A stretch of 64,000 nucleotides of DNA from a virus. The stretch is taken from positions 32,001-96,000 of IMG/VR virus record IMGVR_UViG_3300016665_000824; one strand, given 5' to 3'. Position 1 is the stretch's first letter, and every line of letters begins with the position of its first letter. The notes beneath the pieces were generated by a model. It had not been told where the DNA came from. It ran no database searches and saw only the letters and a program-made list of their open reading frames with translations. The translations under genes were made by a program, and so were the position numbers. This document shows positions 1 to 64,000 of this stretch, piece after piece.

Positions 1-1756
1 ATATTGAGCTAAATACCTGTGGCTTGCTTGAATCGTAATCATAGACCTTTCGGATCACGCTGTTGTAAGCCTCTTCTCCCGCAAAAATAAATTCAGGACG
101 ATTATCGCCAGCCTTCCTTGTTGTAGTTGGCAAATACGGGTTAAATACAGGGCTTTTAGCAAAAGTAAAACAGCTTTTAAAACTACTCTCACTCTTAATC
201 CAAAAAGGTTCGGAGTCGGTCGGACTAGCAGTAATAATGCCTACAACATATTCAGGATCGATAACCGTAGTGCCATTTTGAGTGATATACGAGGGAGGAA
301 TATTTCCCCTAGCCACAATGTCTTGGGGAATATCAGTGTATTTTTGGACTTCAATCTGAAATGGGAAAGGAGTAGATACGGGATACAGCGATCGTATAGG
401 CGCAATCTCAAAGCCAGACCTCCCGTTAATTGGAATCTTTTTCCAGTCACAAAGCTCGGCTGCATAGCGAGATGTATTGTAAACATTGTCAGAAACTGCG
501 GGTGGAGTACTGTATATGGACTCGTACTTACCTTCCGTCTCTTTTTGGAGTCGGACGTACTTCCATCCACGAATCGTTGTGCCAATTAAATATTTGGCAT
601 TGTCAAGAATGGTCTGAAACCCATTCCCTTTCAGTACATTTGCCGAGTCTGGGTTAATATAAATTGGCGCTACTCTACCTGTGGAGGTGGCGTAAACATT
701 GAAATAGGCAAGAATAGAAGAATATTCATAGGTTACTTCTTGTTCTTCAACCTGAGTCCACCATAAGCTAGGAGAACCATTTAGTTTTAAAACGGTTCTT
801 TTACCCTCGATTGTCCCAAACTCAGCGACATCTACTGCCCTAAATTTATATCCGTAAATACGAGTTAATTCGCTCTGAACAACGCCATCGACAATTACGG
901 TGCGAGTATAAACTTTCTTAGGTCCCGATACGTCAAAATTCATATCAAGCGACTTAAGCGTTCCACTTGCTTCTTTAGATGAAAGTTGACTAGCATCGTC
1001 CCCAGTGTCGCCACCTCCATTCTGGATAACAATTTCTGTTTGAGGGGAAATTGGTAAAAGCAATTTATCTTCTTGGTCGAAAGGATCTTTGGAGAACTTA
1101 CCTGTGATCGCCACGTTGTCGATAATTGGCAGTACAGGACTGCGCTTCCTGCTCCCGTCATCGACGACCAAGTAATCGGGGAAAGCCCAAGAGCCAACCC
1201 CATCTATAGGAAGCATCTTTACAGCATCAACATCAGAAAACCGAACAAAACATCCTAGTCTGCGGCAGTTAGTTTTTAAGATCTCTTCAAAGGTTGTTTC
1301 GAGATTATCTGGGGAGAAAAATATTGCAGGTCCAGAGTAGGCAATACCTAGAAACGCGGCGATCGCTGCCACATTTACGCCAGTGGCATATTTAAACCTT
1401 GAAAAATTATCAGGTTGCACGAACGGGCTAACACTAAACTTTCTCTGGCACTTGGCTTTCCACTTTGAATCAAGGTTGACCACAACCTCATAGGTTTCAA
1501 TATCTCCACGACCATGACGTGATCGCTTGATCGACACCCCACTCGGCATCACGATAAAGCCAATGCCTTCGATATTTACAGTCGTTAAGTTTGGGTATGC
1601 AGTGGCGATCGTATTGGCAAGATCTAAAGTACACCCCTTATAAGTGATCGTCCCCGAAGGATAGTCTTCTAGCTTGTCAGACCACTGCAAATTACCTACT
1701 TGTAGCGGGTAGGGCAATTGAGGGTAACTCGTAAGCTGTTGAGAGATCGTAGGCAT
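1..1756 (-). CDS. Virion structural protein, tail fiber/baseplate-like; 3' partial, continues beyond window start
   Basis: Open minus-strand frame from ATG at 1756 to window edge, not in ORF track because no stop in window; TAATG stop/start overlap with upstream ORF; Ser/Thr/Gly/Asn-rich beta-type composition. Confidence 0.5.
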   Translation of the reverse strand, partial: MPTISQQLTSYPQLPYPLQVGNLQWSDKLEDYPSGTITYKGCTLDLANTIATAYPNLTTVNIEGIGFIVMPSGVSIKRSRHGRGDIETYEVVVNLDSKWKAKCQRKFSVSPFVQPDNFSRFKYATGVNVAAIAAFLGIAYSGPAIFFSPDNLETTFEEILKTNCRRLGCFVRFSDVDAVKMLPIDGVGSWAFPDYLVVDDGSRKRSPVLPIIDNVAITGKFSKDPFDQEDKLLLPISPQTEIVIQNGGGDTGDDASQLSSKEASGTLKSLDMNFDVSGPKKVYTRTVIVDGVVQSELTRIYGYKFRAVDVAEFGTIEGKRTVLKLNGSPSLWWTQVEEQEVTYEYSSILAYFNVYATSTGRVAPIYINPDSANVLKGNGFQTILDNAKYLIGTTIRGWKYVRLQKETEGKYESIYSTPPAVSDNVYNTSRYAAELCDWKKIPINGRSGFEIAPIRSLYPVSTPFPFQIEVQKYTDIPQDIVARGNIPPSYITQNGTTVIDPEYVVGIITASPTDSEPFWIKSESSFKSCFTFAKSPVFNPYLPTTTRKAGDNRPEFIFAGEEAYNSVIRKVYDYDSSKPQVFSSI

Positions 1757-2124
1757 TAGCTAACTTCACCACCTGAAATCTTGACATCGGAAAAATATGC
1801 GTAGCCATGCCCAAGAAATCGACTATCCACAGAGTCAAAGGAATAATAGTCGTCCTGAACTTTATAGCTTGATATTTCTAGTTCAATCCCAGCTTGCCCC
1901 AACTGCTTTTTTTCTGGTACTAAAGCCTCGGAGTCTACTGGGTAGCGCTTAAGCTCGGTGTCCTTGAGTATTCTGAGTTTCAATTTATTTGATAGAGATC
2001 GCTGCATTGATGACCCCAAAATTCTCTTTACAGGCTTGCATATTATGACCACTGCTTTTCTCTTTGTGTCATTCTTGCGATCGCTAAGCATTGTAGGTAA
2101 TACTGCCAACCGTCTGCCTGCCAT
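1756..2124 (-). CDS. Hypothetical protein in structural operon
   Basis: 122-aa ORF coupled to flanking minus-strand genes. Confidence 0.4.
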   Translation of the reverse strand: MAGRRLAVLPTMLSDRKNDTKRKAVVIICKPVKRILGSSMQRSLSNKLKLRILKDTELKRYPVDSEALVPEKKQLGQAGIELEISSYKVQDDYYSFDSVDSRFLGHGYAYFSDVKISGGEVS

Positions 2125-2935
2125 TTACAGGGGAAGGCTGTTCAACCTGAGATCCCGCAAACAATGCCATTGGCATGTATAGCGTCACATATTTTTCATC
2201 GTCGGATAAAAATTCGTAGACTTCGGGCGATCGCATGTTTAAAGCCCTCAAATAAGTACGCCCCGCAAAGTCAGAAACGAGTGTAAATTCTGGTAGTTCA
2301 TAAGTAGCGATCGCGGCGACAGGCTCCAACGTTAAATCTTGATGTAAATGTAGCATTGTTGCGCCCGTAGGGAATGGGGCTGTCGGATAGACAAAGATTG
2401 CATCGGTATCAACACCATAGGTTCCTACTACGCCGAGAGTTGGCGAGTACGGGAACGAGATGCCGTCTACGGCAATGGGGCTGGGACTAGTGAATGTACC
2501 CCATGTCGAAGTGTCGATACGATATACGTTTGCATTGTTTGTGGCGATCGCAGTGGCAGACACTGCCATATCTACTGAGATACTGACTGCTTTACTGCCT
2601 TCATATATGTGGACAGTGTTGGAATCAGTATTGAACCAAAATGAATGCGGTACAGCGAGCTTTGGTTCAACTTCATTTGAGCCAGCCACCGATACCGCTT
2701 CGACGGTGAACGGGAAGGTATGGCGGTAGTGAACACCCGAATAAATAGGGTTGACTGCGTGATAAACGACAGGTTGCAACCCGATCGCATTGGCATAAAG
2801 TACGGTGTAGTTACAACTGGCGATCGGAGCCATGCTGCGTGATGAGCCTTGCCATAACCTCATGACACTAGTACTGGTTTGTGATGGACTAGGTAGTGCG
2901 GTAGTAGGCAAGTCGTTGGACACGAGTTTAAACAT
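2084..2935 (-). CDS. Putative tail/baseplate structural protein
   Basis: 283-aa ORF; 16-bp palindrome immediately upstream of ATG; context downstream of giant tape-measure-like gene. Confidence 0.5.
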   Translation of the reverse strand: MFKLVSNDLPTTALPSPSQTSTSVMRLWQGSSRSMAPIASCNYTVLYANAIGLQPVVYHAVNPIYSGVHYRHTFPFTVEAVSVAGSNEVEPKLAVPHSFWFNTDSNTVHIYEGSKAVSISVDMAVSATAIATNNANVYRIDTSTWGTFTSPSPIAVDGISFPYSPTLGVVGTYGVDTDAIFVYPTAPFPTGATMLHLHQDLTLEPVAAIATYELPEFTLVSDFAGRTYLRALNMRSPEVYEFLSDDEKYVTLYMPMALFAGSQVEQPSPVNGRQTVGSITYNA

Positions 2936-2951
2936 AATTCAGATCTGAATT
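2936..2951. repeat. Perfect 16-bp palindrome AATTCAGATCTGAATT filling the intergenic gap before an ATG
   Basis: Member of ATTCAGATC[TG]GAAT family, also at 28783-28798, 36955-36969, 43314-43329, 53273-53290. Confidence 0.6.
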
Positions 2952-4403: not shown

Positions 4404-4472
4404 TGGCGCATCAAAAAGGCGATCGCTTTATTTAATGTGCGATCGCCTTTTTGATATTTAATTGTTGCGGAA

Positions 4473-5321: not shown

Positions 5322-5352
5322 GGTAACAAGGACTTGAGTCCTTGTTACCTTA
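5319..5352. terminator. Strong hairpin (15-bp stem, 4-nt loop) spanning the stop codons of two convergent genes
   Basis: TAAGGTAACAAGGAC-TTGA-GTCCTTGTTACCTTA; no flanking U-tract. Confidence 0.45.
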
Positions 5353-16763: not shown

Positions 16764-18468
16764 ACTTATTTTTCACCGCTTTTTCCACCGCAAGTCTGGC
16801 TGCAATACCAATCGCGATCTTAACTATGGGATGAGAACCTTCTGCGTAAGAAGGAGAGGCTTTTTGTAACGCTGCAAATGAAGCTTTCGTGCCTACATAT
16901 TGCGTTGCCGCGTCAGAAAACATCAATAGCGCAGTTTTTTCTGTCTGACCTAACGAGGAGTCGGACAACGTTCTCTCTGTCGCATCACGAGCAACTTTAC
17001 CTCCAAAGGCTCCAACCAAACTAGAACCAATCTCATATCCAAGCATCTTGAGTTTGTCTTTTTCTTGCCTCCCAATCGATTTTAAGGTGACAAAATCGCC
17101 CACTTGCTGGACAAAGTTCTTTTTCGCTTGCGGAGTTTGAATCATGGCTTGGAGGCTTCTGCCTGCGCTTGAATTGCGGAGTTTTCCAATAGAGCGGGTT
17201 AAGCGATCTCCTAGTCCGCCCCTTCCTTTTACTGTGGATAGAATAGCCTCCCCGACCTGCATCCCGTCCCTAGCCTTCTGCCTTAAGTCGTGTTGCTTCC
17301 CCTTAGGGGCATTAGCGATTAGGGCTAGCGTAGTCGCCGAGGCTGCTGCTACCCCTATTGTTGCCAAGGTTCTTGAGGAAATAAAAGGTTTTCTCTTTTC
17401 TGACCCGCAGGTTGCGTTTTTTGGGATACAGTAAGTCTGACCGTCCTCGCCCTTGCACGGCTTTCCGCGATCGCAGGTAGAATCTATTCTATTTTGAATA
17501 GATCTTGTTTTTTTGTAGATGTATCCGCTAGTCCTCCCCGTCTTAGATCTCAAAAAAGAATCTGTTTCTGTACTGATTTTGCGTGCAAACCCCTGATAAT
17601 CCTGAAAACGATCGGTCACAGTTCTGGGTTGCTTGTCCTGCCATTTTTCTGTTAATTGCCTGTTTAGATTGGCGTGAACGTCAGCCAACTCTTTAGCTAG
17701 TGAGCTACTAGGAGAAAATGCCCCCTCTCTTTTAGCCTGTAATACAGAGGTGGTTTCCGCTCCAGTCGCACGAATTTCTTTGATGTTACTAAAAAACGCT
17801 CCTACTTTTAAGTCGGCGGGACTAAAGGCTGACGTATCTCCAACCCCAGCAATATCTGGGTGATTGTGAGTCATCAGTACTGTGTTTTTTGCGGCTTTTT
17901 GATTATACGCATCGGTTATTCCAAGAGAGACCGAGCCTATCTGCCCTTTTCTGATCAGTGAAGGCTTGCCATCCACGTCAAAAGCAAAAAGAGTCTCGAA
18001 ATCATTATGCTGGATCTTTCTTTCTGCCGCGTAAACACTAATTGCAAGTTCTTTGGGGAGGTGGCTATATGCAGGAGCATCTCTTGCGGGAATGCCATTC
18101 TTGGCTACGTCTTCTCGTTCTTTCGCAAACTCCTTATAGGTTTCAACATCATCAAGCTTCTCTCTTATAACCTTATTGGCAATCATGGCTCCCACCCCCA
18201 GCGCTAAAAACTTAGCCGCCGCCTGAGGATCTTTAGAAGCTAATGCGGCTCCTGCCGCTAGTACAGTCAGTTTTGCAAGAGTTCCAGTTCCATCGCCCTT
18301 ACTAGCTGTGGATAGGGAACCAGTTCTAGATATCGGATGACAGGCGGAGCCTCTTTGGACATAACCTTGCCGACAATTGATTTTTTTGTACTCATCCCGC
18401 CTCTCCACATATCGCGATCGCGACAGTAGATACCCCATTTCGTACTCGTTCTTGTTATCTAGTCTCAC
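16753..18468 (-). CDS. Cys-motif/hydrophobic-helix protein with JAB/MPN-like (JAMM) signature
   Basis: 571 aa; N-terminal CRQGYVQRGSAC plus hydrophobic segment; central THNHP...SPAD (aa 200-219) resembles RadC/JAB HxH...SxxD; C-terminal CDRGKPCKGEDGQTYCIPKNATCG plus hydrophobic segment. Confidence 0.55.
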   Translation of the reverse strand: MRLDNKNEYEMGYLLSRSRYVERRDEYKKINCRQGYVQRGSACHPISRTGSLSTASKGDGTGTLAKLTVLAAGAALASKDPQAAAKFLALGVGAMIANKVIREKLDDVETYKEFAKEREDVAKNGIPARDAPAYSHLPKELAISVYAAERKIQHNDFETLFAFDVDGKPSLIRKGQIGSVSLGITDAYNQKAAKNTVLMTHNHPDIAGVGDTSAFSPADLKVGAFFSNIKEIRATGAETTSVLQAKREGAFSPSSSLAKELADVHANLNRQLTEKWQDKQPRTVTDRFQDYQGFARKISTETDSFLRSKTGRTSGYIYKKTRSIQNRIDSTCDRGKPCKGEDGQTYCIPKNATCGSEKRKPFISSRTLATIGVAAASATTLALIANAPKGKQHDLRQKARDGMQVGEAILSTVKGRGGLGDRLTRSIGKLRNSSAGRSLQAMIQTPQAKKNFVQQVGDFVTLKSIGRQEKDKLKMLGYEIGSSLVGAFGGKVARDATERTLSDSSLGQTEKTALLMFSDAATQYVGTKASFAALQKASPSYAEGSHPIVKIAIGIAARLAVEKAVKNKYED

Positions 18469-22875: not shown

Positions 22876-22968
22876 ATCGCTATTGTTTGATGCTCACAAG
22901 CAAACAGGCGATCGCTTGATGAATTAGCGATCGCCTGTTAGATCTCCTTGTACACATGGCACATGAGG

Positions 22969-24528: not shown

Positions 24529-25440
24529 TTACAATCCGTGCAACCAGAGTACGGAGTAGGGACGCTTGATAATCAAGCCGCCGTACTTCATACGGGCGGT
24601 GCGCTGCATCCCACGAGGAAGCTCAATCCACTTCTTGAAGGAGAAAGGCTCGGTAATGCGGAACTTGATTTTGTTCGGATCGCGCTTGTAGTAACAAGCA
24701 ACGTTAGAACCGCCATCACCAACACCTTCGAGAGGGAGTAAGGGGAAGTAATCCTTAATGTAAGTTGCCTTACTCAAGTAGTAATCAAGAACAGAATCAC
24801 TGTTGAAGTCACTGAGACGACGGAAGCTGATTTCATCGTGAGTTGCCTGAGCAAACAAGATCGTGTCAGGGGTCTCAATATTGCGGGTCAAACGACGCAT
24901 GGCGTTGCCAGTGTTGTTCAATACCGCAAGAAGCTGAGCTACCGTAGCATTGCTGTCAAAAGCGTATGCAGAGTAGGACTTCAAAGTATCAGGATGGTTG
25001 AAGAAACCGCGCAATTGACCGTCACCCAAGAACACCATCTTGTCGAGGTATTGTTGACCTGCTTCAAGCACGATCTGGACTTTTTCCGCCTCAATGCCAG
25101 TACCAAACTTTTGAGAAAGTTCGATTTCTTTGTCATTAAGGGTATAAGCACCAATATGCTCAGAAACTCTTTGGCGGAATTCTCTCGACACGATCTCGAC
25201 GTTAGGAACGTGAGTGGTGTAGTCGCGAGCAGCTTCCCACCGACCGATACCAGTTACCTTGCGATAGCCAGTTTCTTCGAGTTCAGGTTTGTTCCAATCT
25301 TCGCGAGGAAGGAGAGTGCCGTTAGCCCAGTAAAGCTGTTCGTACTCTTCTTTTTCGAGAGACTGTTCTAGTTCGACGAGCTGCTCTTTGAAGTAGCCCA
25401 CCGACCAATCATCATTCTTAATTTCAGTAGCTGTGGTCAT
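24529..25440 (-). CDS. Putative major capsid protein
   Basis: Start reassigned to ATG 25440 (MTTATEIKND), preceded by AGGAGG; track start 25728 runs through upstream gene; ~303 aa, downstream of protease/scaffold-like gene. Confidence 0.45.
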   Translation of the reverse strand: MTTATEIKNDDWSVGYFKEQLVELEQSLEKEEYEQLYWANGTLLPREDWNKPELEETGYRKVTGIGRWEAARDYTTHVPNVEIVSREFRQRVSEHIGAYTLNDKEIELSQKFGTGIEAEKVQIVLEAGQQYLDKMVFLGDGQLRGFFNHPDTLKSYSAYAFDSNATVAQLLAVLNNTGNAMRRLTRNIETPDTILFAQATHDEISFRRLSDFNSDSVLDYYLSKATYIKDYFPLLPLEGVGDGGSNVACYYKRDPNKIKFRITEPFSFKKWIELPRGMQRTARMKYGGLIIKRPYSVLWLHGL

Positions 25441-25450
25441 TGGACTCCTC

Positions 25451-26323
25451 CTAGAAGTTCGCGTAAACTTTGACAACCCTGTTGTTGTTGATGTCGATAA
25501 CAACATCGGAGCGGAAACTGGCGCGGGTCGAAGCGTCGATCGCGCTGTTCGCATTGGTCTTTTGGGCATAACCCTTAGAGCCAGCAGCAACAGAGATATA
25601 AACGGTGTCGGACTCGGCGATACTGGTTTCCAAAGTAGGAACCCAAATACCAGAGAGATCACCCAATCGTCGTTGAACATCAACCGCCAACTGGTTAGCT
25701 TCGTATCCAGCAGTCGCCGCTTCGCCAACCACGTCTTTTTGAACGGAGGTGTTTAGGCGGGTGATGCCGCAGATAGCGGAGATTGCGTCACCACTGTTAG
25801 GAAGGCGAATGCTGCCACCATTGAGAGTTCCAGTCACACGAGGAGTTGTGCCTGCGACCTTGGTGACAAACAATCCAAAGCCAATGCGAGATGGGGCTGC
25901 GGCTGCGGTAGTTGGAGTGGTAGGCACGGTTAAAGGTGCTGCACCGCCACCACTGACGCTCACAAACATCGGGGTATTATCCTTGCGATGAGTGAAGACC
26001 AAAGTTGAGGTGTTATTTACCACCGAGGCAATCTGGCTGGCGCGAAGGTTAGCGCGGAACGCTGCGTACAAGCCTGCGGCAAGGTCGGCGCGAACAGTTG
26101 AAGCGGTGGTAAAAGAGAAGGTGATTGGGTTATCGGAGGTATCAGCATCATAGATAGTGATGCTGTACACAGTGGCTGTAACGGGAGTTGCAGGAGTTGT
26201 AACCGTCCAAACTTCCTTAACGTAGCCACTGTCATTGTGATAGGCTTCAACAGAGCCAACACCCATGCCCTCAACCATTCCAGCGAGAGCCTGTGTGTAA
26301 TACTGGCGATAATTCTTTTGCAT
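25451..26323 (-). CDS. Ala/Thr-rich head structural protein (decoration or capsid-associated)
   Basis: 290-aa ORF between scaffold-like and capsid-like genes. Confidence 0.4.
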   Translation of the reverse strand: MQKNYRQYYTQALAGMVEGMGVGSVEAYHNDSGYVKEVWTVTTPATPVTATVYSITIYDADTSDNPITFSFTTASTVRADLAAGLYAAFRANLRASQIASVVNNTSTLVFTHRKDNTPMFVSVSGGGAAPLTVPTTPTTAAAAPSRIGFGLFVTKVAGTTPRVTGTLNGGSIRLPNSGDAISAICGITRLNTSVQKDVVGEAATAGYEANQLAVDVQRRLGDLSGIWVPTLETSIAESDTVYISVAAGSKGYAQKTNANSAIDASTRASFRSDVVIDINNNRVVKVYANF

Positions 26324-26336
26324 TGTTTAGTTGCTC

Positions 26337-43208: not shown

Positions 43209-43257
43209 ATTCAGTGGCGATCGCGTATGTCCATCTGACAGGCGATCGCCACTGAAT
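43209..43257 (-). promoter_or_regulatory. 16-bp-stem hairpin directly upstream of the portal-like gene start codon
   Basis: ATTCAGTGGCGATCGC...GCGATCGCCACTGAAT ending 1 nt from ATG at 43208. Confidence 0.45.
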
Positions 43258-49595: not shown

Positions 49596-50051
49596 ATGTC
49601 TAACTCTAGTTCTGCCACAAAATTGGCGATCGCAAGATTAAAAGGATCTGACCTGCCTATTTTTGTTCCAGTTTCAGTCTCTGAGAAAGTCGCAACCCTA
49701 GTCAGGGAGTGTATTTTACAGTCCGACAGTTTAAAGATATTAAAAGTTACTACTACAGTTTACAACGAGCTTACTAAGCATTTAAAGCAGTACGAAAAGC
49801 CAAAATATACCATTCCTCAGTATCTTTTGATGCTCCTATATACGGTTTCTACTACTTCAGAATTGATCGAAAAACACAACAAGGGTTTAATTTCAGATGA
49901 CGAGTTTATTAACTGTATCAAAAACAACAAAAACGCAAACGGGACTAAAACCTCCCGCAAAATGGGTCGGAAGAAAGCAAGCGTTGATGCCAGCGATCGC
50001 GCAGTACTTCCCCGCGAGGTTCACAAAAGAACCAGTTCCAAGGTTTCTTGA
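49596..50051 (+). CDS. Hypothetical protein; 3' end overlaps methyltransferase start
   Basis: 151-aa ORF; ~155-nt overlap with next gene in another frame. Confidence 0.35.
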   Translation: MSNSSSATKLAIARLKGSDLPIFVPVSVSEKVATLVRECILQSDSLKILKVTTTVYNELTKHLKQYEKPKYTIPQYLLMLLYTVSTTSELIEKHNKGLISDDEFINCIKNNKNANGTKTSRKMGRKKASVDASDRAVLPREVHKRTSSKVS

Positions 50052-50814
50052 TTTCAAAAAGGGTGTCGGCAATTTCCACGACCCTTTCGTTGGTACTGGT
50101 AGTGCATTTTTGTATTTTGCGGATGGATTTCGAGGCGATCGCAAGATTTTTATTAGTGACAGTAATCCTGAACTCATTAATATTTGGCTGTGCATTCAAG
50201 CCGATCCTCTAAGGCTTTTAAGATCCTTGCTTGAATACAAGCGCCCTGTATTTAACAGCGCCGAATCGTACTATCACGAAAGGCAGATCTTCAATCAGCA
50301 GTTTAAAGGTTCTTACGACTACGAGCTAGCAGCAAGAATGATCTACTTAATTCAGGCTGGTTTCAATAGCCTATGGAGGGTTAACAGCGACGGTGAAATG
50401 AACACGCCTTTTGGCTCTCAGAAGCAAATTGCCCTTCTTACCGAGAATGATTTGACCGCGCTTTCGGTTCTCCTTCAAAAAGCGACAATCAAACATCAGC
50501 CTTTTGAAGAGTCGCTAAAAGATGTACAACCCAATGATGTCGTCTATCTCGACCCGCCATACATTGAAGTCAAAAAGAATTCCTTCAATAAATACACCAC
50601 AAAAGGTTTTAGCAGAGAGCAGCAGATACTCCTCCGCCAAGAAGCCGATCGCCTGCACGATCTAGGCGCTTATGTATACGCCAGTAATAGCGATACCCCC
50701 TTGAGTCGCGAAATTTGGTCGGGCTGGAAAATCGCAGAACTGACGAGATCGGGCTGCATGAACTCAGATGCAACCAAGCGTCAACGGGTTGGAGAGTTGT
50801 TATTTTATAAATAA
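49897..50814 (+). CDS. dam: DNA N6-adenine methyltransferase, Dam (D12) class
   Basis: KWVGRK N-terminal motif, FVGTGS motif I, VYLDPPY motif IV. Confidence 0.8.
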   Translation: MTSLLTVSKTTKTQTGLKPPAKWVGRKQALMPAIAQYFPARFTKEPVPRFLDFKKGVGNFHDPFVGTGSAFLYFADGFRGDRKIFISDSNPELINIWLCIQADPLRLLRSLLEYKRPVFNSAESYYHERQIFNQQFKGSYDYELAARMIYLIQAGFNSLWRVNSDGEMNTPFGSQKQIALLTENDLTALSVLLQKATIKHQPFEESLKDVQPNDVVYLDPPYIEVKKNSFNKYTTKGFSREQQILLRQEADRLHDLGAYVYASNSDTPLSREIWSGWKIAELTRSGCMNSDATKRQRVGELLFYK

Positions 50815-52874: not shown

Positions 52875-54632
52875 CTAGCTAGCGATCGCCATTAATTTAG
52901 TCAACCCAGCCTTCCGCAACATCTCTTGCTGGAGCTTGGTTTGAAAATATGGCTTATCCTCAGCACTTGCTACTCGATACAGTTCCAGCCAGTATTTCTC
53001 CCGCTTCTCGCAGTGTATATGCTGAATCTTGGCGATCGCACGGTCAACCACTGCCTTGACATCGCCAGCGATCGCCTCTTGCATTGCGTAAGGTATGTCC
53101 GAAAAGTCATCGTTCAGGAATTTATCCCACAGCGCACAGTGATCGTCATGGGCAAATTCGATCTCTTGAAGCAGGATATACCCCCGCAAATCGGGATGAT
53201 GGACAAAGGCTTTTAGTATCTGCATTTCGGCTAGTTGCAGAGCAGTATAACTGGGTTTTGCGGCAACCTGTGGTGATTCAGATCGGAATACCGATCGCGC
53301 AAGTCGATGTAAATCCTCCTCAATGCGTACGGCAAGGCGAGCATTTCCCTGAGCTAACTTCTGAGCACACTTATGGGTATAGTGGCTACGTCGGGCATCC
53401 ATCGGCAATGGGGCGAGTATTTGCGCGATCGCTTGATTAGCTCGCTGGAAGTCGGCAGAATTGTTAAGGTCTTTGCCCTTAATCTCAAGGTCAATTAACC
53501 AGTCAAGGTATAGCGGCGCTTCGCGGAGCAGCGATAAGTACGCTTCAGAACCATAAGTGGTTAGGTACTCGTCGGCATCTTTTTTGCCCTCAATGGTTAG
53601 TATCCGTAGATTTACCGTACCATCCAGAACTAGCTCTAGGACTTGACTTACGGCTTTTTTAGTTGCCGTAACACCTGCTTTGTCCGAGTCGAAGTTGCAA
53701 ACTATACGCTTCGACTCAGTATGGCGTAAAACCTGTTTAATTTGAGCGGCGCTAAGCGCTGTGCCCATTGAGCCGACTGCATGGGTAATTCCATTTTGGT
53801 GCAGGGAAATCACGTCGAGGTGTCCTTCGACAATTACCGCCTCGTCGTTCTTGGCGATCGCCTCACAAGCTTTGTCTAGTCCAAACAGTAGTTCACCCTT
53901 TTTGAACAACTCGGTTTCGGGCGAGTTGATATACTTTGCGCCGTCGTCCTCACCGCTTAGCGATCGCGCAGAAAATCCAACCACGCGACCACGGATATCG
54001 GCGATCGGGATAATCAGGCGATCGCGAAATCGGTCATAGTAGCCTTCGTTTTCTTTGCGAGGTATCGCCAACCCCAATTCTTCAAGAGTTTGAACGGGGA
54101 TATTTAACTCGGCAAGGTTACTCCACCCCGCAGGCGCGTAACCGAGCTTGAACTTATTGCAGGTATCTCTGGTGATTTTGCGTTTTTCTAAGTAGGCAAG
54201 GGCTTTGGTGTTGAGCTGTTGCTGGTAGTAACGAGTGACTTTAGCTATTTGATCGAAGAGGTATTCCCTGTGCGATCGCTCCTTAACGATTTGCTCGGCA
54301 TGTTCTGGCTCTTCGGTTCTTACTTCAACCCCGTAACGACCAGCCAAATCTAGTACGGCATCTGGGAACGATTTATGACCAATCTCCATCATAAACTTGA
54401 TCGCACCACCCGACGCACCGCAGTTATGGCAGTAATACATGCCTTTGCTGGGGTCTACCGAGAGGGCGCTGGGATTCGTGCCGTTGTGAAATGGGCAAGC
54501 GCCACGAAATGAGTGACCCGACCGCTTAAGTACGACGTTTTCGCTAACGACATCAACGATGTCGGCTTTGTCGTTTACTGCGGCGATCGTATCAGCATGG
54601 ATTCGGAATGATTTAGGTTTGGCGGATTGCAT
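52875..54632 (-). CDS. dnaG: DNA primase, DnaG-type
   Basis: N-terminal CHC2 zinc finger (CPFHNGTNPSALSV...YYCHNCGASGG), central polymerase region, TOPRIM-like EGHLDVISL and DSDKAG. Confidence 0.85.
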   Translation of the reverse strand: MQSAKPKSFRIHADTIAAVNDKADIVDVVSENVVLKRSGHSFRGACPFHNGTNPSALSVDPSKGMYYCHNCGASGGAIKFMMEIGHKSFPDAVLDLAGRYGVEVRTEEPEHAEQIVKERSHREYLFDQIAKVTRYYQQQLNTKALAYLEKRKITRDTCNKFKLGYAPAGWSNLAELNIPVQTLEELGLAIPRKENEGYYDRFRDRLIIPIADIRGRVVGFSARSLSGEDDGAKYINSPETELFKKGELLFGLDKACEAIAKNDEAVIVEGHLDVISLHQNGITHAVGSMGTALSAAQIKQVLRHTESKRIVCNFDSDKAGVTATKKAVSQVLELVLDGTVNLRILTIEGKKDADEYLTTYGSEAYLSLLREAPLYLDWLIDLEIKGKDLNNSADFQRANQAIAQILAPLPMDARRSHYTHKCAQKLAQGNARLAVRIEEDLHRLARSVFRSESPQVAAKPSYTALQLAEMQILKAFVHHPDLRGYILLQEIEFAHDDHCALWDKFLNDDFSDIPYAMQEAIAGDVKAVVDRAIAKIQHIHCEKREKYWLELYRVASAEDKPYFQTKLQQEMLRKAGLTKLMAIAS

Positions 54633-57997: not shown

Positions 57998-59220
57998 TGA
58001 AAGGATACGAACAGACCTGCCCCAAAGTCGAAGCGATCGGGCAAATCAACTTTCACGGCGACGGTGTTTTTACGCCAAACAACTGGTATCACAACATCTG
58101 TCACAAGAACGGTAAACCCTATCTCGAAGCAATAATTCTTCTTGCGGATATTGTTTCTTGGTATTTGCCCATCTACGAAAGAGATGAAGTCACTGGCAAG
58201 ACGATTGGGGTCAGGAAAAAATTCAAGGCAGACAAACTCCAGCGAAACTACGACTCTTTTGCGGACCATTATGGCATGACCAAAGATCAAGCTAGAAATG
58301 CTCTGAAACACCTAGAAAGAGACGGACTCATAGACCTAGAGCTAAGAACAGTCGAAACTTCAGTACAAAAGCTTGGAAATGTTTTGTTTATCGGTGTTTA
58401 CCCAGAAAAAATCAAGGATTACACTTTCACCCTCTCGCCAAAAGAACAGACCCCTGTGCTCACAGAAACCGATAGGGGTATCGACAGAAAAGCAGAGGGG
58501 TCTGCACAGAAACAGACAGCACTCCCCACAGAAGCCCAGACAAATACAGATCAATCTACAGATCTTTCTACTGATCAATCTACTAAAAATATAAGAGCGG
58601 ATGAATTTTTTGCGATCGCTCCTTCGTCGCAAATCCAAGAAAATTCTTTTCCCGCACAAACAGAAAATCCGAGAATTGAAGAAACCCCAACACCCCCTAC
58701 CCCCTCTTCCCCTTCCGCGCCCGAAAATATCGGCAAGGCGATCGCGCCCTCGGTAGCCACCTCAAAACAGGCAGAAGCGTATATGCAGTTTGAGCAGCGC
58801 TTTAGCCAACCAAAACCTCAAAACCGCCACGTACCCAAACTGCTTGTGGAGGCTGGCTATGCAGAATGGCACAACGGCAAACACCCGAACGACTGGCGCA
58901 AATCCTTGATAGATGTTTGCATCCAAAGGAAGAAAAAGCGTGGCGATGAAGCGACTGTAGGTGCAGCCACCGACTTTATTTTTAACGTAATGAAAGACTG
59001 TATTTCCCTCGGATTCTGGGGTAAGTTCCAAGAGCTTGTTGATCAAGCCCTAAAGCTCGAAGCCGTCGAAGCGATCGCCGCACAACAAAAACAAATTGAA
59101 GATCAGCGATTCGAGCAACAGCCAGTTGAATCTAACGCCCCCACAATGACTCTTGAACTTCGCAAGCAATATGCTGCCGAATTGAGACGTAAAGCCAACA
59201 ACATGAGACTAATTGCTTAA
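57994..59220 (+). CDS. Putative replication initiation / replisome organizer protein
   Basis: 408 aa; globular N-terminal domain, Thr/Pro/Ser-rich linker, C-terminal domain; immediately upstream of DnaB-like helicase. Confidence 0.45.
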   Translation: MMKGYEQTCPKVEAIGQINFHGDGVFTPNNWYHNICHKNGKPYLEAIILLADIVSWYLPIYERDEVTGKTIGVRKKFKADKLQRNYDSFADHYGMTKDQARNALKHLERDGLIDLELRTVETSVQKLGNVLFIGVYPEKIKDYTFTLSPKEQTPVLTETDRGIDRKAEGSAQKQTALPTEAQTNTDQSTDLSTDQSTKNIRADEFFAIAPSSQIQENSFPAQTENPRIEETPTPPTPSSPSAPENIGKAIAPSVATSKQAEAYMQFEQRFSQPKPQNRHVPKLLVEAGYAEWHNGKHPNDWRKSLIDVCIQRKKKRGDEATVGAATDFIFNVMKDCISLGFWGKFQELVDQALKLEAVEAIAAQQKQIEDQRFEQQPVESNAPTMTLELRKQYAAELRRKANNMRLIA

Positions 59221-60952
59221 AACTATGAAAGACCCACAACAGATCCAAAGACTCAACGCTCAGATCGAACCTAGCAACGTTGAAGCCGAACAAACGATCA
59301 TTGCGGGGGTTTTTGAAGGTGGAAGCCTTCTTAGCCTAGTCGCCGACGCAATCACACCTGAGATGTTTTTTTCGAGCCTTCTAGGGGCATTTTTTAGGGC
59401 ATCGTTGTTTTTGAGAAATAGCGATCGCGACATAAACACCCTAACCTTAGCCGCCGCGCTACAGGAGATGGGTTTTAAAGACTTTTACGGCTTTGACAGT
59501 ATCTCGGCGCTAGTCCACAACACCTATGCCGACATTATGGGCAGCACGTATATTCAAAGTCCAGCCCACTACGAATCTGCCGCCGCCCTAATCCGTGAAG
59601 CCTCCGTAAGGCGAGACCTGATTAAAGCTGGCAGAGCAGCGATCGCCGCAGCCTACGATCAAGAAATATCTGTGCTTGATGCCTGTACTAAAGCTCAAGA
59701 TTTGATTGGGGATGCTATGACATCATCTCAGGTTCGTAGTACCGTGTTTGAGGTTGGTACAACCTACACAAACATGTGTGCGGAACTTCTCGATCCTCAA
59801 ATTGGAGAGTTCAATCCCGTAATCCCCAGTGGTTATGCGGCGTGGGATGAAATGCTTGAAGGTGGTTTTCGGGGTGCTGAACTCGCGGTTATTGGTGGAG
59901 ACTCGGCGATCGGTAAGTCGATGCTCTTGTTTGGTGCGGCATGGAATATGGCGAAATTCCTTTCGGATCAAGGTAGGGTGGGTTATATCGGCTCGATGGA
60001 AATGTCCACTCGTAGCGTTGTGCATCGCTGGATTGCTTCCGAAGCGCAAGTGGCTTTATCTCGGATGCGTCGCCGAGAATTAAGCGAAGCCGATTGCGAA
60101 AGGATTATGAAGGCATCTAGCGCTGGCGAAATGTTGAATAACCTTGTAATTGACGAGGACAACAAGGCTACTATCCCCCAAATGCTTAACCGAGCCAAAG
60201 AATTTGCACGTAAACATGCTAGAAAATATGGCGGTAGCGGCGAGCTTGGCTTTATGGTTATCGACAACATCAAGATCGCCGAAAAAGGTGGTGACGATTT
60301 CAACTTGGTTAACCGATACCTCAAAGATCTCAAGGGGATTGCAAAGGATTACAACATCCCGATAATCTCTTTGTCTCAGCTAACTAGAGAATCCCTGTTA
60401 AAAAGTTCTGACAAACGCCCTACTGTTGAGGGGTTGTATGGCGGCAAAGCGATTGAAGAAAATGCTGACGACATTTTTGGCTTGTATCGAGGTGTTAAGT
60501 ACGACGATTTCTCTATCCCCACAAACCGAGCTGAGATTATTCGTCTGAAAGGTCGAAACTCAGACCAGTCAAAGGAAAATAGAACGATTTTGCTTGGCTT
60601 CAATGGCGCTCTTTCTACTTTTTACGACCTTGGCGAACCAAAACTAGCCCAAAAATCGGAGCAAAAACAAGCGATCGCCACACCAGTCACCGAAGACATT
60701 AACTACTTCGGCGATCTCGAAGATGGATGTCAAGTTGTTCTGGATATTTCCTACTCAACACCTGAAGAAAAATCGGAGATCAGCGATCGTATCAACGCAA
60801 AGCAGCTACCAAAGCCCAATGAAGTCTGTGGAGTAACCCGCCTAAGCGTTTGCGAAACTCCTGAAGTAGGTAAATTTGGGGTTGCCCACCTAATACTGCC
60901 CGACAACTCCGAAATGAAGGTTGCAGTAGACGAATTGCGCCGAGTCAGTTAG
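59213..60952 (+). CDS. dnaB: Replicative DNA helicase, DnaB-type
   Basis: N-terminal IEPSNVEAEQTIIAGV motif; Walker A GGDSAIGKS; RecA-like C-terminal domain. Confidence 0.85.
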   Translation: MLKTMKDPQQIQRLNAQIEPSNVEAEQTIIAGVFEGGSLLSLVADAITPEMFFSSLLGAFFRASLFLRNSDRDINTLTLAAALQEMGFKDFYGFDSISALVHNTYADIMGSTYIQSPAHYESAAALIREASVRRDLIKAGRAAIAAAYDQEISVLDACTKAQDLIGDAMTSSQVRSTVFEVGTTYTNMCAELLDPQIGEFNPVIPSGYAAWDEMLEGGFRGAELAVIGGDSAIGKSMLLFGAAWNMAKFLSDQGRVGYIGSMEMSTRSVVHRWIASEAQVALSRMRRRELSEADCERIMKASSAGEMLNNLVIDEDNKATIPQMLNRAKEFARKHARKYGGSGELGFMVIDNIKIAEKGGDDFNLVNRYLKDLKGIAKDYNIPIISLSQLTRESLLKSSDKRPTVEGLYGGKAIEENADDIFGLYRGVKYDDFSIPTNRAEIIRLKGRNSDQSKENRTILLGFNGALSTFYDLGEPKLAQKSEQKQAIATPVTEDINYFGDLEDGCQVVLDISYSTPEEKSEISDRINAKQLPKPNEVCGVTRLSVCETPEVGKFGVAHLILPDNSEMKVAVDELRRVS

Positions 60953-62824: not shown

Positions 62825-63089
62825 CACAGTTGGTTTGATTTTTGGTAAGGAAGATAGCAGGACAGAGCAGGAAATCTCTGAGCTTGCGGAGGTCGTAAAA
62901 GCGGCTGGAATTAAGAGAAACCCTGCCATGTTTGCAAGATTTATTTACACACTCGACAAGACAAAAACCTGTCACCCGTCGATTGACCGTGAAGCCTTTC
63001 TGCTAACACTTCAAGAAGTATGGGAAGAGAAGGGACTCCAAGGACTTTCTCTCGCTGAAGAAATATATCAAAGAGGTTTTACAAGATGA
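62817..63089 (+). CDS. Small hypothetical protein
   Basis: 90-aa ORF. Confidence 0.5.
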   Translation: MSDTVGLIFGKEDSRTEQEISELAEVVKAAGIKRNPAMFARFIYTLDKTKTCHPSIDREAFLLTLQEVWEEKGLQGLSLAEEIYQRGFTR

Positions 63090-63823
63090 TTGAAAGGCAA
63101 GTTAAACTGCTGGTTCTAGACAAAGACGGTACACTCGTTCGCCCCAAATCTGGCAATACCTTCGTCCAGCACCCCGAAGATCAGGAGCTAATCGAAGGAG
63201 TGGCTGAAGCTATTCAGAGGTATGTTGCTGATGGATGGCAGTTGGCGATCGCGTCAAATCAGGGTGGATGCGAAGTGCGATGGTGTCACCCCGCCGAATT
63301 ACCTGTAGGTAGTTACTGCAATGTAGATAACATTGCCATCAAGGTTGAATACCTTCAAGACACTGGTGAGTTTATACTCGTAAATGGGCATCACCCACTA
63401 CCAAAAACTAGGTTTGCGAAGTTCCAATACAAGACTCTCGGCATAGCGATCGCAGAGATGCAGTATGCGATGAAGCTGATCGGCATTCAGTATCATGGTC
63501 TATTCTGTCCAGACATGCAAGGGAATGAATGCTACATGACTTCGGACTTTGCTGCTCCGCCATTACACAAGGTTGATAGATACAAACACTTAATAGGCTC
63601 GTTCCGTAAGCCCAGTGGTGGAATGTTGCTAGCATTAAAGCAGCACTTTGAAACACATCTTGATGATGTTGATCGGCTGCTCATGATCGGCGATCGTCCC
63701 GAAGATTTGGGATCGGCTCAAGCCGCAGGATTCGATTTTGTGTGGGCAGAAGACTGGCGAAATAACGAACTAGACAAAGTTCTGCCCTACAGGAGCGAAG
63801 AATGGATCGCTCTGAACTCCTAA
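63086..63823 (+). CDS. HAD-superfamily phosphatase (polynucleotide 3'-phosphatase/GmhB-like)
   Basis: LVLDKDGTL (DxDGT motif I), IASNQ, MIGDRPEDLGSAQAAGF. Confidence 0.7.
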   Translation: MIERQVKLLVLDKDGTLVRPKSGNTFVQHPEDQELIEGVAEAIQRYVADGWQLAIASNQGGCEVRWCHPAELPVGSYCNVDNIAIKVEYLQDTGEFILVNGHHPLPKTRFAKFQYKTLGIAIAEMQYAMKLIGIQYHGLFCPDMQGNECYMTSDFAAPPLHKVDRYKHLIGSFRKPSGGMLLALKQHFETHLDDVDRLLMIGDRPEDLGSAQAAGFDFVWAEDWRNNELDKVLPYRSEEWIALNS

Positions 63824-64000
63824 CTCGCATCCAAGTCCAGCGAATGTGGCTAGAGGACATCCGTGGCAAGTCTCTAGCTCCTCAGTTGGAGATTTGGAAG
63901 AACAAATACCTTGCCGCAAATAATCTCACGCATCTGGATGCTCAGGGGCTGGAGCAACTGCTTAAGGCTCTTGAGTCTATGACTAAGGCTACGGTGAGTA
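63812..64000 (+). CDS. Hypothetical protein, 5' partial view (continues beyond window end)
   Basis: ATG at 63812 overlaps previous stop; open to window end. Confidence 0.35.

What the first reader, a model, noticed from the sequence alone, without database searches (positions are those of the whole stretch)
1..64000. Host-like HIP1 (GCGATCGC) enrichment throughout phage genes
The palindromic octamer appears far more often than the roughly one or two copies expected by chance, inside coding regions and in most hairpin stems. Exact count not made. This points to a cyanobacterial host and long co-evolution or shared repair/methylation pressure.
Basis: partly seen in the sequence, partly recalled or inferred. 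Interest (0 to 1): 0.45.

Follow-up and report, generated by a model that had tools for sequence, protein, structure and literature searches.

The report
Cyanophage genome saturated with host HIP1 palindrome
This window is part of a complete ~134 kb virus of cyanobacteria (probably of freshwater Pseudanabaena) whose DNA carries the cyanobacterial signature octamer GCGATCGC at full host density while nearly every other short GC-containing palindrome has been purged; the motif itself is well known, but a phage that copies it so exactly is a useful natural test of how it arises.

Summary
The core observation holds. GCGATCGC (HIP1) occurs 139 times in 64 kb against about 1 expected, and it is the commonest 8-mer by far. 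121 copies lie inside genes. The clause "most hairpin stems" fails: 3 of 15 perfect hairpins carry it.

The enrichment acts on the DNA and not through codon usage. Synonymous-codon shuffles give about 14 copies. Ala-Ile-Ala is 6-fold over-represented, and 74 of its 76 occurrences are spelled GCGATCGC.

HIP1 sites are conserved in related metagenomic phages at 83% against about 40% for control 8-mers.

The window belongs to a circular ~134 kb phage genome of the PaV-LD/CL131 group. The primase's nearest cellular homologues, the nearest portal in genome assemblies, and a shared total purge of CCGG and GGCC all point to freshwater Pseudanabaena. Chromosomal DNA from that genus has the same HIP1 density, codon-frame split and palindrome spectrum.

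The phage encodes a Dam-family methyltransferase (in the window) and a C5 methyltransferase (just outside it). Other cyanophages, including the Pseudanabaena phage PA-SR01, contain no GATC at all.

Most likely reading: HIP1 is made and kept by the host's methylation-linked process acting on phage DNA that tolerates GATC/CGATCG. Known motif, new carrier; moderate interest.

The parts
1..64000 (.). 139 copies of HIP1 (GCGATCGC) spread across the window. They sit within 204 CGATCG and 506 GATC.
49897..50814 (+). Dam-family N6-adenine DNA methyltransferase (D12 class). Presumed GATC-specific; specificity not tested. The metagenome gene caller started it at 50110, but the family model aligns from residue 18 of the long ORF.
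   Evidence: Pfam PF02086, E = 7e-43. NCBIfam TIGR00571 'dam', 188.8 bits against a cutoff of 114.85. Its homologues form a phage-only clade at 68-93% identity, then nothing above 35%.
52875..54632 (-). Bacterial-type DnaG primase. Serves as a marker for the host clade.
   Evidence: Pfam domains. The nearest cellular homologues, at 43-49% identity, are all Pseudanabaena/Pseudanabaenaceae; Leptolyngbyaceae follow at 41-44%.
59213..60952 (+). DnaB-type replicative helicase.
   Evidence: PF03796 and PF00772
41553..43208 (-). Portal protein. Used to anchor the phage lineage.
   Evidence: PF06381. About 30% identical to the portals of S-CBS4, CL131 and PaV-LD. 49% identical to a Pseudanabaena 'Roaring Creek' contig.
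24529..27827 (-). Head module: DUF2213 protein (26337-27827), an unknown gene (25451-26323), and the major capsid protein (within 24529-25728).
   Evidence: PF09979 and PF09950. The same gene order occurs in PaV-LD and CL131. Capsid protein is 33% identical to theirs.
43209..43257 (-). Hairpin with a 16 bp perfect stem whose inner half is a HIP1 pair. It directly abuts the portal start codon and is conserved with compensatory changes.
   Evidence: L010 has a 21 bp perfect stem with both arms changed. In the ~96% relatives the two changes form G.U pairs only in the minus-strand RNA (-29.1 against -20.1 kcal/mol).
4410..4455 (.). Intergenic hairpin with a 17 bp perfect stem built on a HIP1 pair.
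22903..22939 (.). Intergenic hairpin with a 14 bp perfect stem built on a HIP1 pair.
18381..18521 (.). Position of the 141 nt end overlap of assembly contig k141_20893. The window runs across the circular junction.
   Evidence: Coordinate arithmetic. The junction is continuous in an independent assembly, L006.

Best explanation
The window is 64 kb of a complete, circularly assembling ~134 kb genome of an uncultured tailed cyanophage of the PaV-LD/vB_AphaS-CL131 group. Its most probable host is a freshwater Pseudanabaena.

Shown. The phage carries the host's whole short-palindrome fingerprint. HIP1 is at host density (about 2.2 per kb), with the host's codon-frame split and the host's CGATCG-to-HIP1 ratio. 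CCGG, GGCC and about 25 six-base palindromes are purged in both. The enrichment is imposed on the DNA and overrides coding, as seen in the Ala-Ile-Ala excess and Ala-Val-Ala deficit. It is hierarchical, with a CGATCG core and G/C flanks: one-mismatch variants are common only at positions 1 and 8. It is maintained at orthologous sites across diverged relatives.

Inferred. Phage DNA replicating in the cell is subject to the same methylation-linked process that creates and preserves HIP1 in cyanobacterial chromosomes. That process could be a biased mismatch-repair ratchet, as Elhai proposed, or selection on methylated HIP1; these data cannot separate the two. The phage can accumulate the motif because it does not have to avoid GATC or CGATCG. 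It encodes a Dam-family methyltransferase and a C5 methyltransferase that presumably methylate those sequences, whereas other phages of HIP1-rich hosts have eliminated GATC altogether. A few HIP1 pairs have additionally been built into conserved intergenic hairpins.
For: Count and significance.
DNA-level cause: synonymous shuffles give 14.3 +/- 3.4 against 124 observed. AIA occurs 76 times against 13 expected, and 74 of 76 are encoded as GCGATCGC. AVA occurs 4 times against 12.4 expected.
Hierarchy: variants at positions 1/8 total 62 against about 6 expected; variants at positions 3-6 total 6 against about 13. Elhai 2015 (PMC4390886) reports the same bias for cyanobacteria.
Maintenance: 83% of HIP1 sites are conserved against 37-43% of control 8-mers (L009), and 58-90% against 13-19% (L010).
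Phage identity and completeness.
Host. The Pseudanabaena FACHB-1998 locus has 2,186 HIP1 per Mb, CGATCG O/E 15.6 and frame split 0.56/0.30/0.14, against the phage's 2,172, 13.6 and 0.60/0.28/0.12. Spearman rho is 0.74-0.88 over six-base palindromes.
Methyltransferases. The best phage-database match of the C5 MTase is the MTase of HIP1-rich PaV-LD, and the similarity includes the variable region.
Contrast set: PaV-LD, CL131, Nostoc A1 and Nodularia 2AV2 are HIP1-rich. A-4L, Pf-WMP4 and PA-SR01 have 0 GATC and Mic1 has 2.
Against: The sequence specificity of neither methyltransferase was determined. The C5 enzyme lies outside the window, and no link to the cyanobacterial CGATCG enzyme DmtC was established.
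Mic1 is annotated with a DNA adenine methylase yet is almost free of GATC, so 'has an MTase' does not by itself predict HIP1.
The HIP1-rich phages sampled are mostly one related group, or possibly temperate, so the contrast with GATC-free phages is confounded by phylogeny and lifestyle, and the sample is small (9 cultured phages, partial genomes).
The host assignment is inferential: there is no CRISPR spacer or culture evidence, and primase identity is only 43-49%.
About 45-50 kb of the genome was not examined.
Xu et al. 2018 (PMC5861425) argue that conservation favours selection over biased repair. My data do not discriminate.
Confidence: 0.6

Rival explanations
1. Amelioration during lysogeny. 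The phage is temperate, or recently was. It acquires HIP1 and the palindrome purge while it is replicated and repaired as part of the host chromosome. Its own methyltransferases are irrelevant.
For: More distant members of the same portal family lie on long cyanobacterial scaffolds, for example a 119 kb Nostoc linckia z4 scaffold, and are HIP1-rich. PaV-LD has an annotated integrase and CL131 an integrase/resolvase-like gene. Among the GATC-free phages sampled, PA-SR01 is described as lytic in its paper; A-4L and Pf-WMP4 are T7-like podoviruses, which I take to be lytic from general knowledge. The window has an HTH protein and a pRha-type antirepressor-like gene.
Against: No integrase or recombinase domain was found among the genes of the 82 kb examined, or in 10 kb more of a relative. 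The contig closes on itself with no host flanks. No close integrated copy was found in 185,579 species genomes; the only good hit is a 3.5 kb contig. The Nostoc myophage A1 is also HIP1-rich.
Confidence: 0.25
2. Direct selection for a phage function of HIP1 itself, independent of host repair. Examples would be hairpin terminators or RNA elements, recombination or packaging signals, or a 'self' mark that shields DNA from a host defence.
For: Site conservation is far above background. HIP1 is 2.4-fold denser in intergenic DNA (P = 0.001). Three to four perfect 14-17 bp hairpins are built on HIP1 pairs, and one shows compensatory covariation next to the portal start.
Against: 87% of copies are inside genes, in all three frames, at the same proportions as in the host. 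Only 3 of 15 hairpins use HIP1, and close pairs are at chance frequency. For cyanobacteria, Xu et al. found no support for an RNA, peptide or expression role. Phages of the same host genus do entirely without the motif.
Confidence: 0.12
3. The enrichment is a by-product of amino-acid or codon usage, of host-derived gene insertions, or of a chimeric assembly.
For: None beyond the fact that HIP1 can encode the common residues Ala, Ile, Asp, Arg and Ser.
Against: Shuffles that preserve codon usage and protein sequence give about 14 copies, not 124. The motif is spread through structural genes that have no cellular homologues. Two independent assemblies are 100% identical over 38 kb. Eight diverged IMG/VR relatives show the same enrichment.
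Confidence: 0.02

Closest known systems
HIP1 (Highly Iterated Palindrome 1, GCGATCGC) of cyanobacterial chromosomes (Robinson et al. 1995; Elhai 2015, PMC4390886; Xu et al. 2018, PMC5861425)
   Same: Same octamer. O/E is 193, within the reported 55-228, and density is 2,172 per Mb, within 300-2,700. Same bias of one-mismatch variants toward the first and last base. Same conservation of sites between relatives. Same predominance of the Ala-Ile-Ala frame as in Pseudanabaena DNA.
   Different: The carrier is a phage genome, not a chromosome. The papers I could read on HIP1 do not discuss phages. Density is near the top of the cyanobacterial range and above every genome of 44-49% GC in Elhai's table. 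The 10-90 kb periodicity could not be assessed in 64 kb.
Planktothrix phage PaV-LD and Aphanizomenon phage vB_AphaS-CL131 (freshwater and brackish cyanosiphoviruses)
   Same: Portal about 28-31% and capsid about 33% identical. Same DUF2213 - unknown - capsid gene order. They carry DNA methyltransferases. HIP1 is their commonest 8-mer, at 540 and 1,400 per Mb in the first 50 kb.
   Different: Very distant: there is no nucleotide match. Different hosts. They do not share the total CCGG purge, with O/E of 0.65 and 0.98. The CL131 genome paper does not mention HIP1.
Restriction-site (palindrome) avoidance in phage and bacterial genomes (established concept; cited from my own knowledge)
   Same: 25 of 64 six-base palindromes are absent. 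CCGG occurs 0 times against 166 expected and GGCC 9 against 192, while only 2.3% of non-palindromic hexamers are absent. The pattern tracks the candidate host.
   Different: Here the purge coexists with a 14-fold excess of one palindrome, CGATCG/HIP1. It is the only strongly enriched one.
Orphan Dam and Dcm-type methyltransferases: cyanobacterial DmtA/M.Ssp6803III (GATC) and DmtC/M.Ssp6803I (m5CGATCG) (PMC6105098), and phage-encoded Dam enzymes
   Same: The phage has one Dam-family and one C5 enzyme, the same two enzyme classes that methylate HIP1 in cyanobacteria.
   Different: The phage enzymes are not close to any cellular protein: at most 35% identity for Dam, and 38% for the best NCBI-sourced C5 hit, 48% for any hit outside the phage clade. 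Their specificities are untested, and orthology to DmtA or DmtC was not shown.
Pseudanabaena phage PA-SR01 (MT234670)
   Same: Same probable host genus, similar genome size (137 kb), and the same total purge of CCGG and GGCC. Rho is 0.79 with this phage over six-base palindromes.
   Different: Opposite treatment of the HIP1 family: 0 GATC, 0 CGATCG and 0 HIP1 in 25 kb. It has its own DNA polymerase, and its paper lists no methyltransferase. It is unrelated in portal and capsid.

Membership tests
HIP1-type genome signature (cyanobacterial) | GCGATCGC is grossly over-represented (reported 15- to 300-fold) and is typically the top octamer | tested here: met
   139 copies, O/E 193 by composition and about 108 by dinucleotide shuffles; ranked first among 8-mers
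HIP1-type genome signature (cyanobacterial) | One-nucleotide deviants are biased to the first and last positions (Elhai 2015) | tested here: met
   Positions 1/8: 62 observed against about 6 expected. Positions 3-6: 6 against about 13
HIP1-type genome signature (cyanobacterial) | Sites are conserved between related genomes beyond background (Xu et al. 2018) | tested here: met
   83% against 37-43% (L009); 58-90% against 13-19% (L010)
HIP1-type genome signature (cyanobacterial) | Co-occurrence with GATC-specific and CGATCG-specific DNA methyltransferases | tested here: inconclusive
   A Dam-family enzyme (TIGR00571 passed) and a C5 enzyme (PF00145, TIGR00675) are encoded. Their recognition sequences are not known.
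HIP1-type genome signature (cyanobacterial) | HIP1 is actually methylated (G-m5C-G-m6A-TCGC) | not testable with these tools
   Needs methylome sequencing or methylation-sensitive digestion of virion DNA
HIP1-type genome signature (cyanobacterial) | Quasi-periodic distribution at 10-90 kb scale | not tested
   A 64 kb window (82 kb held) is too short. Spacing is compatible with uniform placement.
PaV-LD/CL131-like cyanosiphoviruses | Homologous portal (PF06381) and capsid (PF09950), with the DUF2213-x-capsid module | tested here: met
   Identities are only 28-34%, so this is the same broad group, not the same genus.
Integrated prophage or host chromosomal segment | Flanking host genes, an integrase, or attachment sites | tested here: not met
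   The circular contig has a 141 nt k-mer overlap and no host flanks. No integrase domain was found in 82 kb. About 50 kb remains unexamined.
Restriction-avoidance genome | Selective depletion of short palindromes relative to non-palindromes | tested here: met
   25 of 64 palindromic hexamers are absent (simulations: 0.02) against 2.3% of non-palindromic hexamers. CCGG 0 of 166 expected.
Phage of freshwater Pseudanabaena (host assignment) | Host-specific sequence signals: homologues of host-derived genes, oligonucleotide fingerprint, CRISPR spacers, culture | tested here: inconclusive
   Primase homologues, portal relative in a Pseudanabaena assembly and the CCGG/GGCC/HIP1 fingerprint all agree. 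CRISPR spacers and infection were not testable.

The most novel reading that the evidence does not exclude
HIP1 status in cyanophages is bimodal and conditional. A phage either purges GATC, CGATCG and HIP1 completely, or it methylates its own DNA with Dam- and Dcm-type enzymes and is then driven to host-level HIP1 saturation by the host's methylation-dependent repair or recognition system. If so, phage genomes are a natural experiment showing that HIP1 is generated or maintained on any suitably methylated replicon inside the cell. HIP1 may then act as a methylated 'self' mark that such phages counterfeit. This would make the 30-year-old question of HIP1 function directly testable with a phage and its two methyltransferases.
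Probability: 0.3. Interest if true: 0.7.

Novelty: new member of a known kind. Interest (0 to 1): 0.45.

Why it matters
HIP1 has been known since 1995, and its origin (biased repair or selection) and its function are still unsettled. A small, fast-evolving replicon would be a tractable system for that question if it shows the full signature, and this one does: host-level density, the same codon-frame split, the same variant spectrum, and site conservation. It also brings its own candidate HIP1 methyltransferases, and it has sister phages of the same host genus that carry no GATC at all. On the practical side, the combined HIP1 and palindrome-purge fingerprint assigned a metagenomic phage to a host genus, and two gene-based signals agreed. 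The limits are that HIP1 richness is already visible in published cyanophage genomes (PaV-LD, CL131, Nostoc A1, Nodularia 2AV2), and nothing here shows a new mechanism.

Tried and rejected
1. Megablast of 22 kb against 50,697 phage records found no match.

2. A single-protein portal scan of genome contigs found nothing. It succeeded only with a four-sequence alignment.

3. A tRNA scan for host clues found none.

4. The consensus promoter/terminator scan of 20-40 kb was at or below shuffle expectation and did not single out HIP1 hairpins.

5. I tried to infer the specificity of the C5 MTase. The nearest solved structures are M.HaeIII, M.HhaI and DNMT1 at only E ~1e-12. Cluster look-up of the NCBI-sourced homologues gave no organism or specificity. 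NCBIfam gave only the superfamily. Specificity stays unknown. I could not obtain a DmtC/M.Ssp6803I sequence for comparison.

6. Using HIP1 flanking extensions for host typing: GGCGATCGCC is only 11% of copies, so the flank preference is weak and not diagnostic against Elhai's Table 3.

7. The 3 kb HIP1-free stretch over the tail-fibre-like genes (37.5-40.5 kb, lower GC) looked like a possible recent import, but the gap is not significant (P = 0.16).

8. Walking into the unexamined ~50 kb: MazG relatives in IMG/VR are distant, unrelated and HIP1-free phages. The relative L040 added 10 kb containing only an IS200/IS605 element and unknown ORFs.

9. An m5C-deamination signature at HIP1 position 2: C/T differences are frequent between relatives, but in the standing pool GAGATCGC is as common as GTGATCGC, so no claim is made.

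10. Literature: four full-text searches found no paper treating HIP1 in phage genomes. Delaye & Moya 2011 did not turn up in these searches and was not read.

Full report
**1. The observation**

GCGATCGC occurs 139 times in the 64,000 bp window. One hundred dinucleotide-preserving shuffles give a mean of 1.29 and a maximum of 5. Base composition alone predicts 0.72. That is 2,172 copies per Mb with O/E about 193. It is the most frequent 8-mer, and the next 24 in the ranking all overlap it.

The enrichment is hierarchical. There are 506 GATC, 204 CGATCG and 139 HIP1. Once the frequencies of its 7-mers and 6-mer core are given, the octamer count is fully predicted (141.6 expected).

With a greedy ORF map (94% coding), 121 copies lie inside genes and 18 are intergenic or straddle a gene end. 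The intergenic density is 2.4-fold higher (P = 0.001).

The copies are spread over the whole window. The largest gap is 2,998 bp, over the tail-fibre-like genes at 37.5-40.5 kb, and it is not significant (P = 0.16). The structural module is poorer than the replication and early region, 1.58 against 2.63 per kb (P = 0.005).

Three of 15 perfect hairpins with stems of at least 10 bp carry HIP1, and 3 of the 6 with stems of at least 14 bp do. Close HIP1 pairs are no more frequent than random placement gives.

**2. It is a DNA-level phenomenon that overrides coding**

Shuffling synonymous codons within each gene, which keeps the protein and the codon usage, gives 14.3 +/- 3.4 copies against 124 observed. 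Shuffling codon order gives 2.2.

The proteins themselves are distorted. Ala-Ile-Ala occurs 76 times against 13.0 +/- 3.6 expected, and 74 of the 76 are spelled GCGATCGC. Ala-Val-Ala is depleted (4 against 12.4). The other two reading frames (x-Asp-Arg and Arg-Ser-x) are also enriched. The frame split is 72/34/15.

One-mismatch neighbours are abundant only at the outer positions: NCGATCGC and its complement total 62 against about 6 expected. Variants at core positions 3-6 are at or below expectation, 6 against about 13. Elhai reported the same bias for cyanobacterial genomes (PMC4390886).

**3. What the window is**

The genes are those of a tailed phage. They include a portal (PF06381), a major capsid protein (PF09950), a DUF2213 protein, a Mu-F-like protein, very large structural proteins, DnaG, DnaB and a D12-class adenine methyltransferase.

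The identical proteins occur on ENA metagenome contig ERZ27292652 k141_20893, which is 134,398 bp. The three sets of record coordinates fit the window only if the contig ends are joined with a 141 nt overlap (the assembler's k). That gives a circular genome of about 134,257 bp which the window crosses at 18,381-18,521.

An independent Logan assembly is 100% identical across that junction. So this is a complete phage genome and not a prophage inside a chromosome.

I hold 81.7 kb of it (window plus flanks). It contains 186 HIP1 copies, or 2.28 per kb. Just outside the window lie a C5 cytosine methyltransferase, dCTP deaminase, ThyX, RusA and MazG.

There is no nucleotide-level match among 50,697 phage records. 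By protein, the nearest portals and capsids belong to the cyanosiphoviruses S-CBS4, vB_AphaS-CL131 and PaV-LD, at 24-34% identity. The latter two share the head-module gene order.

**4. The motif is old and maintained in the lineage**

IMG/VR holds relatives at about 96% and 80% portal identity and others found through a structural protein. All are HIP1-rich, at 1.2-2.5 per kb.

In blastn alignments to the window, 83% of HIP1 sites are HIP1 in L009 (85.6% nucleotide identity), against 37% of all 8-mers and 43% of other 8-mers with six G+C. For L010 (75% identity) the figures are 58-90% against 13-19%. This mirrors the conservation that Xu et al. 2018 reported for cyanobacteria (PMC5861425).

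**5. Host**

Three independent signals converge on freshwater Pseudanabaena.

(a) The phage's full-length bacterial-type DnaG has its best cellular matches, at 43-49% identity and 98% coverage, exclusively in Pseudanabaena, Pseudanabaenaceae, Tumidithrix and PCC 7367. Leptolyngbyaceae follow at 41-44%.

(b) A portal-alignment scan of one genome per 185,579 species finds its best hit in Pseudanabaena sp. 'Roaring Creek', at 49% identity over the full length (E = 1e-167).

(c) Chromosomal loci around dnaG in three freshwater Pseudanabaena assemblies show the same palindrome fingerprint:
- HIP1 at 960-2,186 per Mb; FACHB-1998 has 2,186 against the phage's 2,172.
- CGATCG O/E of 15.6 against 13.6.
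- CCGG O/E of 0-0.09 and GGCC O/E of 0.03-0.06.
- Spearman rho of 0.88 over all 64 six-base palindromes, and 0.74-0.86 without CGATCG.

The total CCGG purge is the discriminating feature. It is absent from PCC 7367, two Leptolyngbya genomes and six other cyanophages (O/E 0.45-2.35). It is present in PA-SR01, a cultured Pseudanabaena phage.

The codon-frame split of HIP1 matches too, 0.56/0.30/0.14 in FACHB-1998 against 0.60/0.28/0.12 in the phage. So does the near-exclusive HIP1 spelling of Ala-Ile-Ala, 24 of 25.

The assignment is inferential. There is no CRISPR or culture evidence.

**6. The palindrome purge**

In the window, 25 of the 64 six-base palindromes are absent, while first-order Markov simulations average 0.02 absent. 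CCGG occurs 0 times against 166 expected and GGCC 9 times against 192. Only 2.3% of non-palindromic hexamers are absent.

CGATCG is the one strongly enriched palindrome, at 14-fold. GATATC, AGATCT, AATATT and TCGCGA are mildly enriched.

**7. HIP1 is not automatic for phages of HIP1-rich hosts**

In partial genomes of cultured cyanophages:

| Phage | HIP1 per Mb | Note |
|---|---|---|
| PaV-LD | 540 | HIP1 is the top 8-mer |
| CL131 | 1,400 | HIP1 is the top 8-mer |
| Nodularia 2AV2 | 500 | HIP1 is the top 8-mer |
| Nostoc A1 | 650 | HIP1 strongly enriched |
| A-4L | 0 | 0 GATC in 25 kb; its Anabaena hosts have about 800 HIP1 per Mb |
| Pf-WMP4 | 0 | 0 GATC, 49 expected |
| PA-SR01 | 0 | 0 GATC |
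| Mic1 | 0 | 2 GATC, 53 expected |
| Ma-LMM01 | 0 | GATC not purged |
| S-EIV1 | 0 | GATC not purged |

All relatives of the portal family found in cyanobacterial assemblies are HIP1-rich across 39-54% GC.

The HIP1-rich PaV-LD and CL131 carry DNA methyltransferases. The best match of this phage's C5 enzyme in the whole phage database is PaV-LD ORF010R, at 31% identity over the full length including the variable region.

The in-window enzyme passes the curated Dam-family model (TIGR00571, 188.8 bits against 114.85). It belongs to a phage-only clade with no cellular relative above 35% identity.

PA-SR01's published gene list has its own DNA polymerase and no methyltransferase. Mic1 is a counter-example: it has an annotated adenine methylase but almost no GATC.

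**8. Mechanism**

Shown: the motif is imposed at the DNA level, is built on a CGATCG core, is maintained at orthologous sites, and quantitatively copies the candidate host.

Inferred: phage DNA is subject to the same methylation-linked process that makes and keeps HIP1 in the host. In cyanobacteria, HIP1 is methylated by a Dam-like enzyme (G-m6A-TC) and by M.Ssp6803I/DmtC (m5C-GATCG) (PMC6105098).

Elhai proposed a G-m5C-directed mismatch-repair ratchet that turns CGATCG into HIP1. Xu et al. favour selection. My data fit both and cannot separate them.

The phage's own Dam-family and C5 enzymes would make GATC and CGATCG safe and methylated. That would explain why this lineage accumulates HIP1 while others purge GATC. 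The step is plausible but unproven, because the specificities are unknown.

**9. Hairpins**

Some HIP1 pairs have been built into larger structures: 17, 14 and 16 bp perfect stems at 4410-4455, 22903-22939 and 43209-43257.

The last one abuts the portal start codon. In L010 both arms have changed in a compensatory way, giving a 21 bp perfect stem. In the ~96% relatives the two changes are G.U pairs only in the minus-strand (coding-strand) RNA, at -29.1 against -20.1 kcal/mol. It is therefore a conserved, probably RNA-level element. This is a minority use of the motif.

**10. Rivals**

The strongest rival is amelioration during lysogeny. Distant family members lie on long cyanobacterial scaffolds and PaV-LD has an integrase. 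PA-SR01, one of the GATC-free phages, is described as lytic. However, no integrase was seen in 82 kb, or in 10 kb more of a relative, and the genome assembles as a free circle. About 50 kb is unexamined.

Direct functional selection in the phage is possible, but it is needed for only a few hairpins.

Codon usage, host gene insertions and assembly artefact are excluded.

**11. Novelty and verdict**

HIP1 is a long-known cyanobacterial signature. Finding it in a phage adds a new carrier, not a new kind of element, and it is already latent in published cyanophage genomes. The papers I could search do not discuss that.

What adds value is the exactness of the host mimicry, the coexistence of HIP1 saturation with an extreme palindrome purge, the phage-borne methyltransferase pair, and the contrast between HIP1-rich and GATC-free phages, including within one host genus.

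Interest is moderate at 0.45. The conditional-methylation reading has a probability of about 0.3 and would deserve about 0.7 if true.

Noticed in passing
window 1-64000 (and flanks in L003, L005): Extreme short-palindrome purge. CCGG occurs 0 times (166 expected) and GGCC 9 times (192 expected). 25 of 64 six-base palindromes are absent, against 2.3% of non-palindromic hexamers. The pattern matches freshwater Pseudanabaena chromosomal DNA and the Pseudanabaena phage PA-SR01.
   Followed up: yes
L014 (PA-SR01), L015 (A-4L), L020 (Pf-WMP4), L021 (Mic1): Four cultured freshwater cyanophages have essentially no GATC: 0, 0, 0 and 2 copies in 20-25 kb, where about 50-80 are expected. They also have no CGATCG or HIP1. 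This is the opposite state to this phage, PaV-LD, CL131, Nostoc A1 and Nodularia 2AV2. I did not find it discussed in the papers read.
   Followed up: partly
window 18381-18521: The window spans the end-to-end junction (141 nt k-mer overlap) of the source contig ERZ27292652 k141_20893. The contig is therefore a closed ~134,257 bp genome. An independent assembly (L006) is continuous across the junction.
   Followed up: yes
window 43209-43257 (minus strand), next to the portal start at 43208: A conserved hairpin with compensatory changes in L010 and G.U-only changes on the coding-strand RNA in the closer relatives. It could be a translational or RNA-stability element for the portal gene.
   Followed up: partly
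window 14221-22492, 33812-36953 (minus strand): Several consecutive large proteins with no Pfam match share short Cys-rich motifs. Examples are C-[KR]-Q-G-Y-V-Q-R-G-x-A-C, and T-C-D-R-G-K-P-C-x-G-E-D-G-x-T-Y-C-I-P-x-x-A-T-C-G, which is present in both the 112 aa and the 571 aa ORFs. Seen by eye in the translations.
   Followed up: no
window 5345-13780 (minus strand): A single 2,811 aa ORF with no Pfam hit on record. Presumably a tape-measure or tail protein.
   Followed up: no
window 28813-30786 (plus strand): A 657 aa protein with no Pfam or NCBIfam hit. By eye, its C-terminus contains a DPFAFSG motif reminiscent of the AdoMet-binding motif of N4/N6 DNA methyltransferases. It may be a third, divergent or inactive MTase. 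Unverified.
   Followed up: no
window 1-27900 versus 27901-64000: HIP1 density is lower in the structural module (1.58 per kb) than in the replication and early region (2.63 per kb; P = 0.005). The flank beyond the window, which holds the C5 MTase and nucleotide-metabolism genes, is richest: L005 overall has 3.2 per kb.
   Followed up: partly
L040 17415-19052: A relative of this phage (85% identical structural protein) carries an IS200/IS605 element (Y1 TnpA plus TnpB/Cas12f-like) that is absent from the corresponding region held for this genome.
   Followed up: no
L045 (MAG labelled Acetobacteraceae, JBIPLY010000606.1): A 49 kb contig binned as Acetobacteraceae encodes a portal of this cyanophage family. 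It has 41.5% GC and HIP1 at O/E 67, so it is probably a mis-binned cyanophage contig.
   Followed up: no
window 50768-51418 and 57398-57997: A DUF4326 protein sits immediately downstream of, and overlapping, the Dam-family gene. A T5orf172/MUG113 (GIY-YIG-like) domain protein lies upstream of the replication genes.
   Followed up: no
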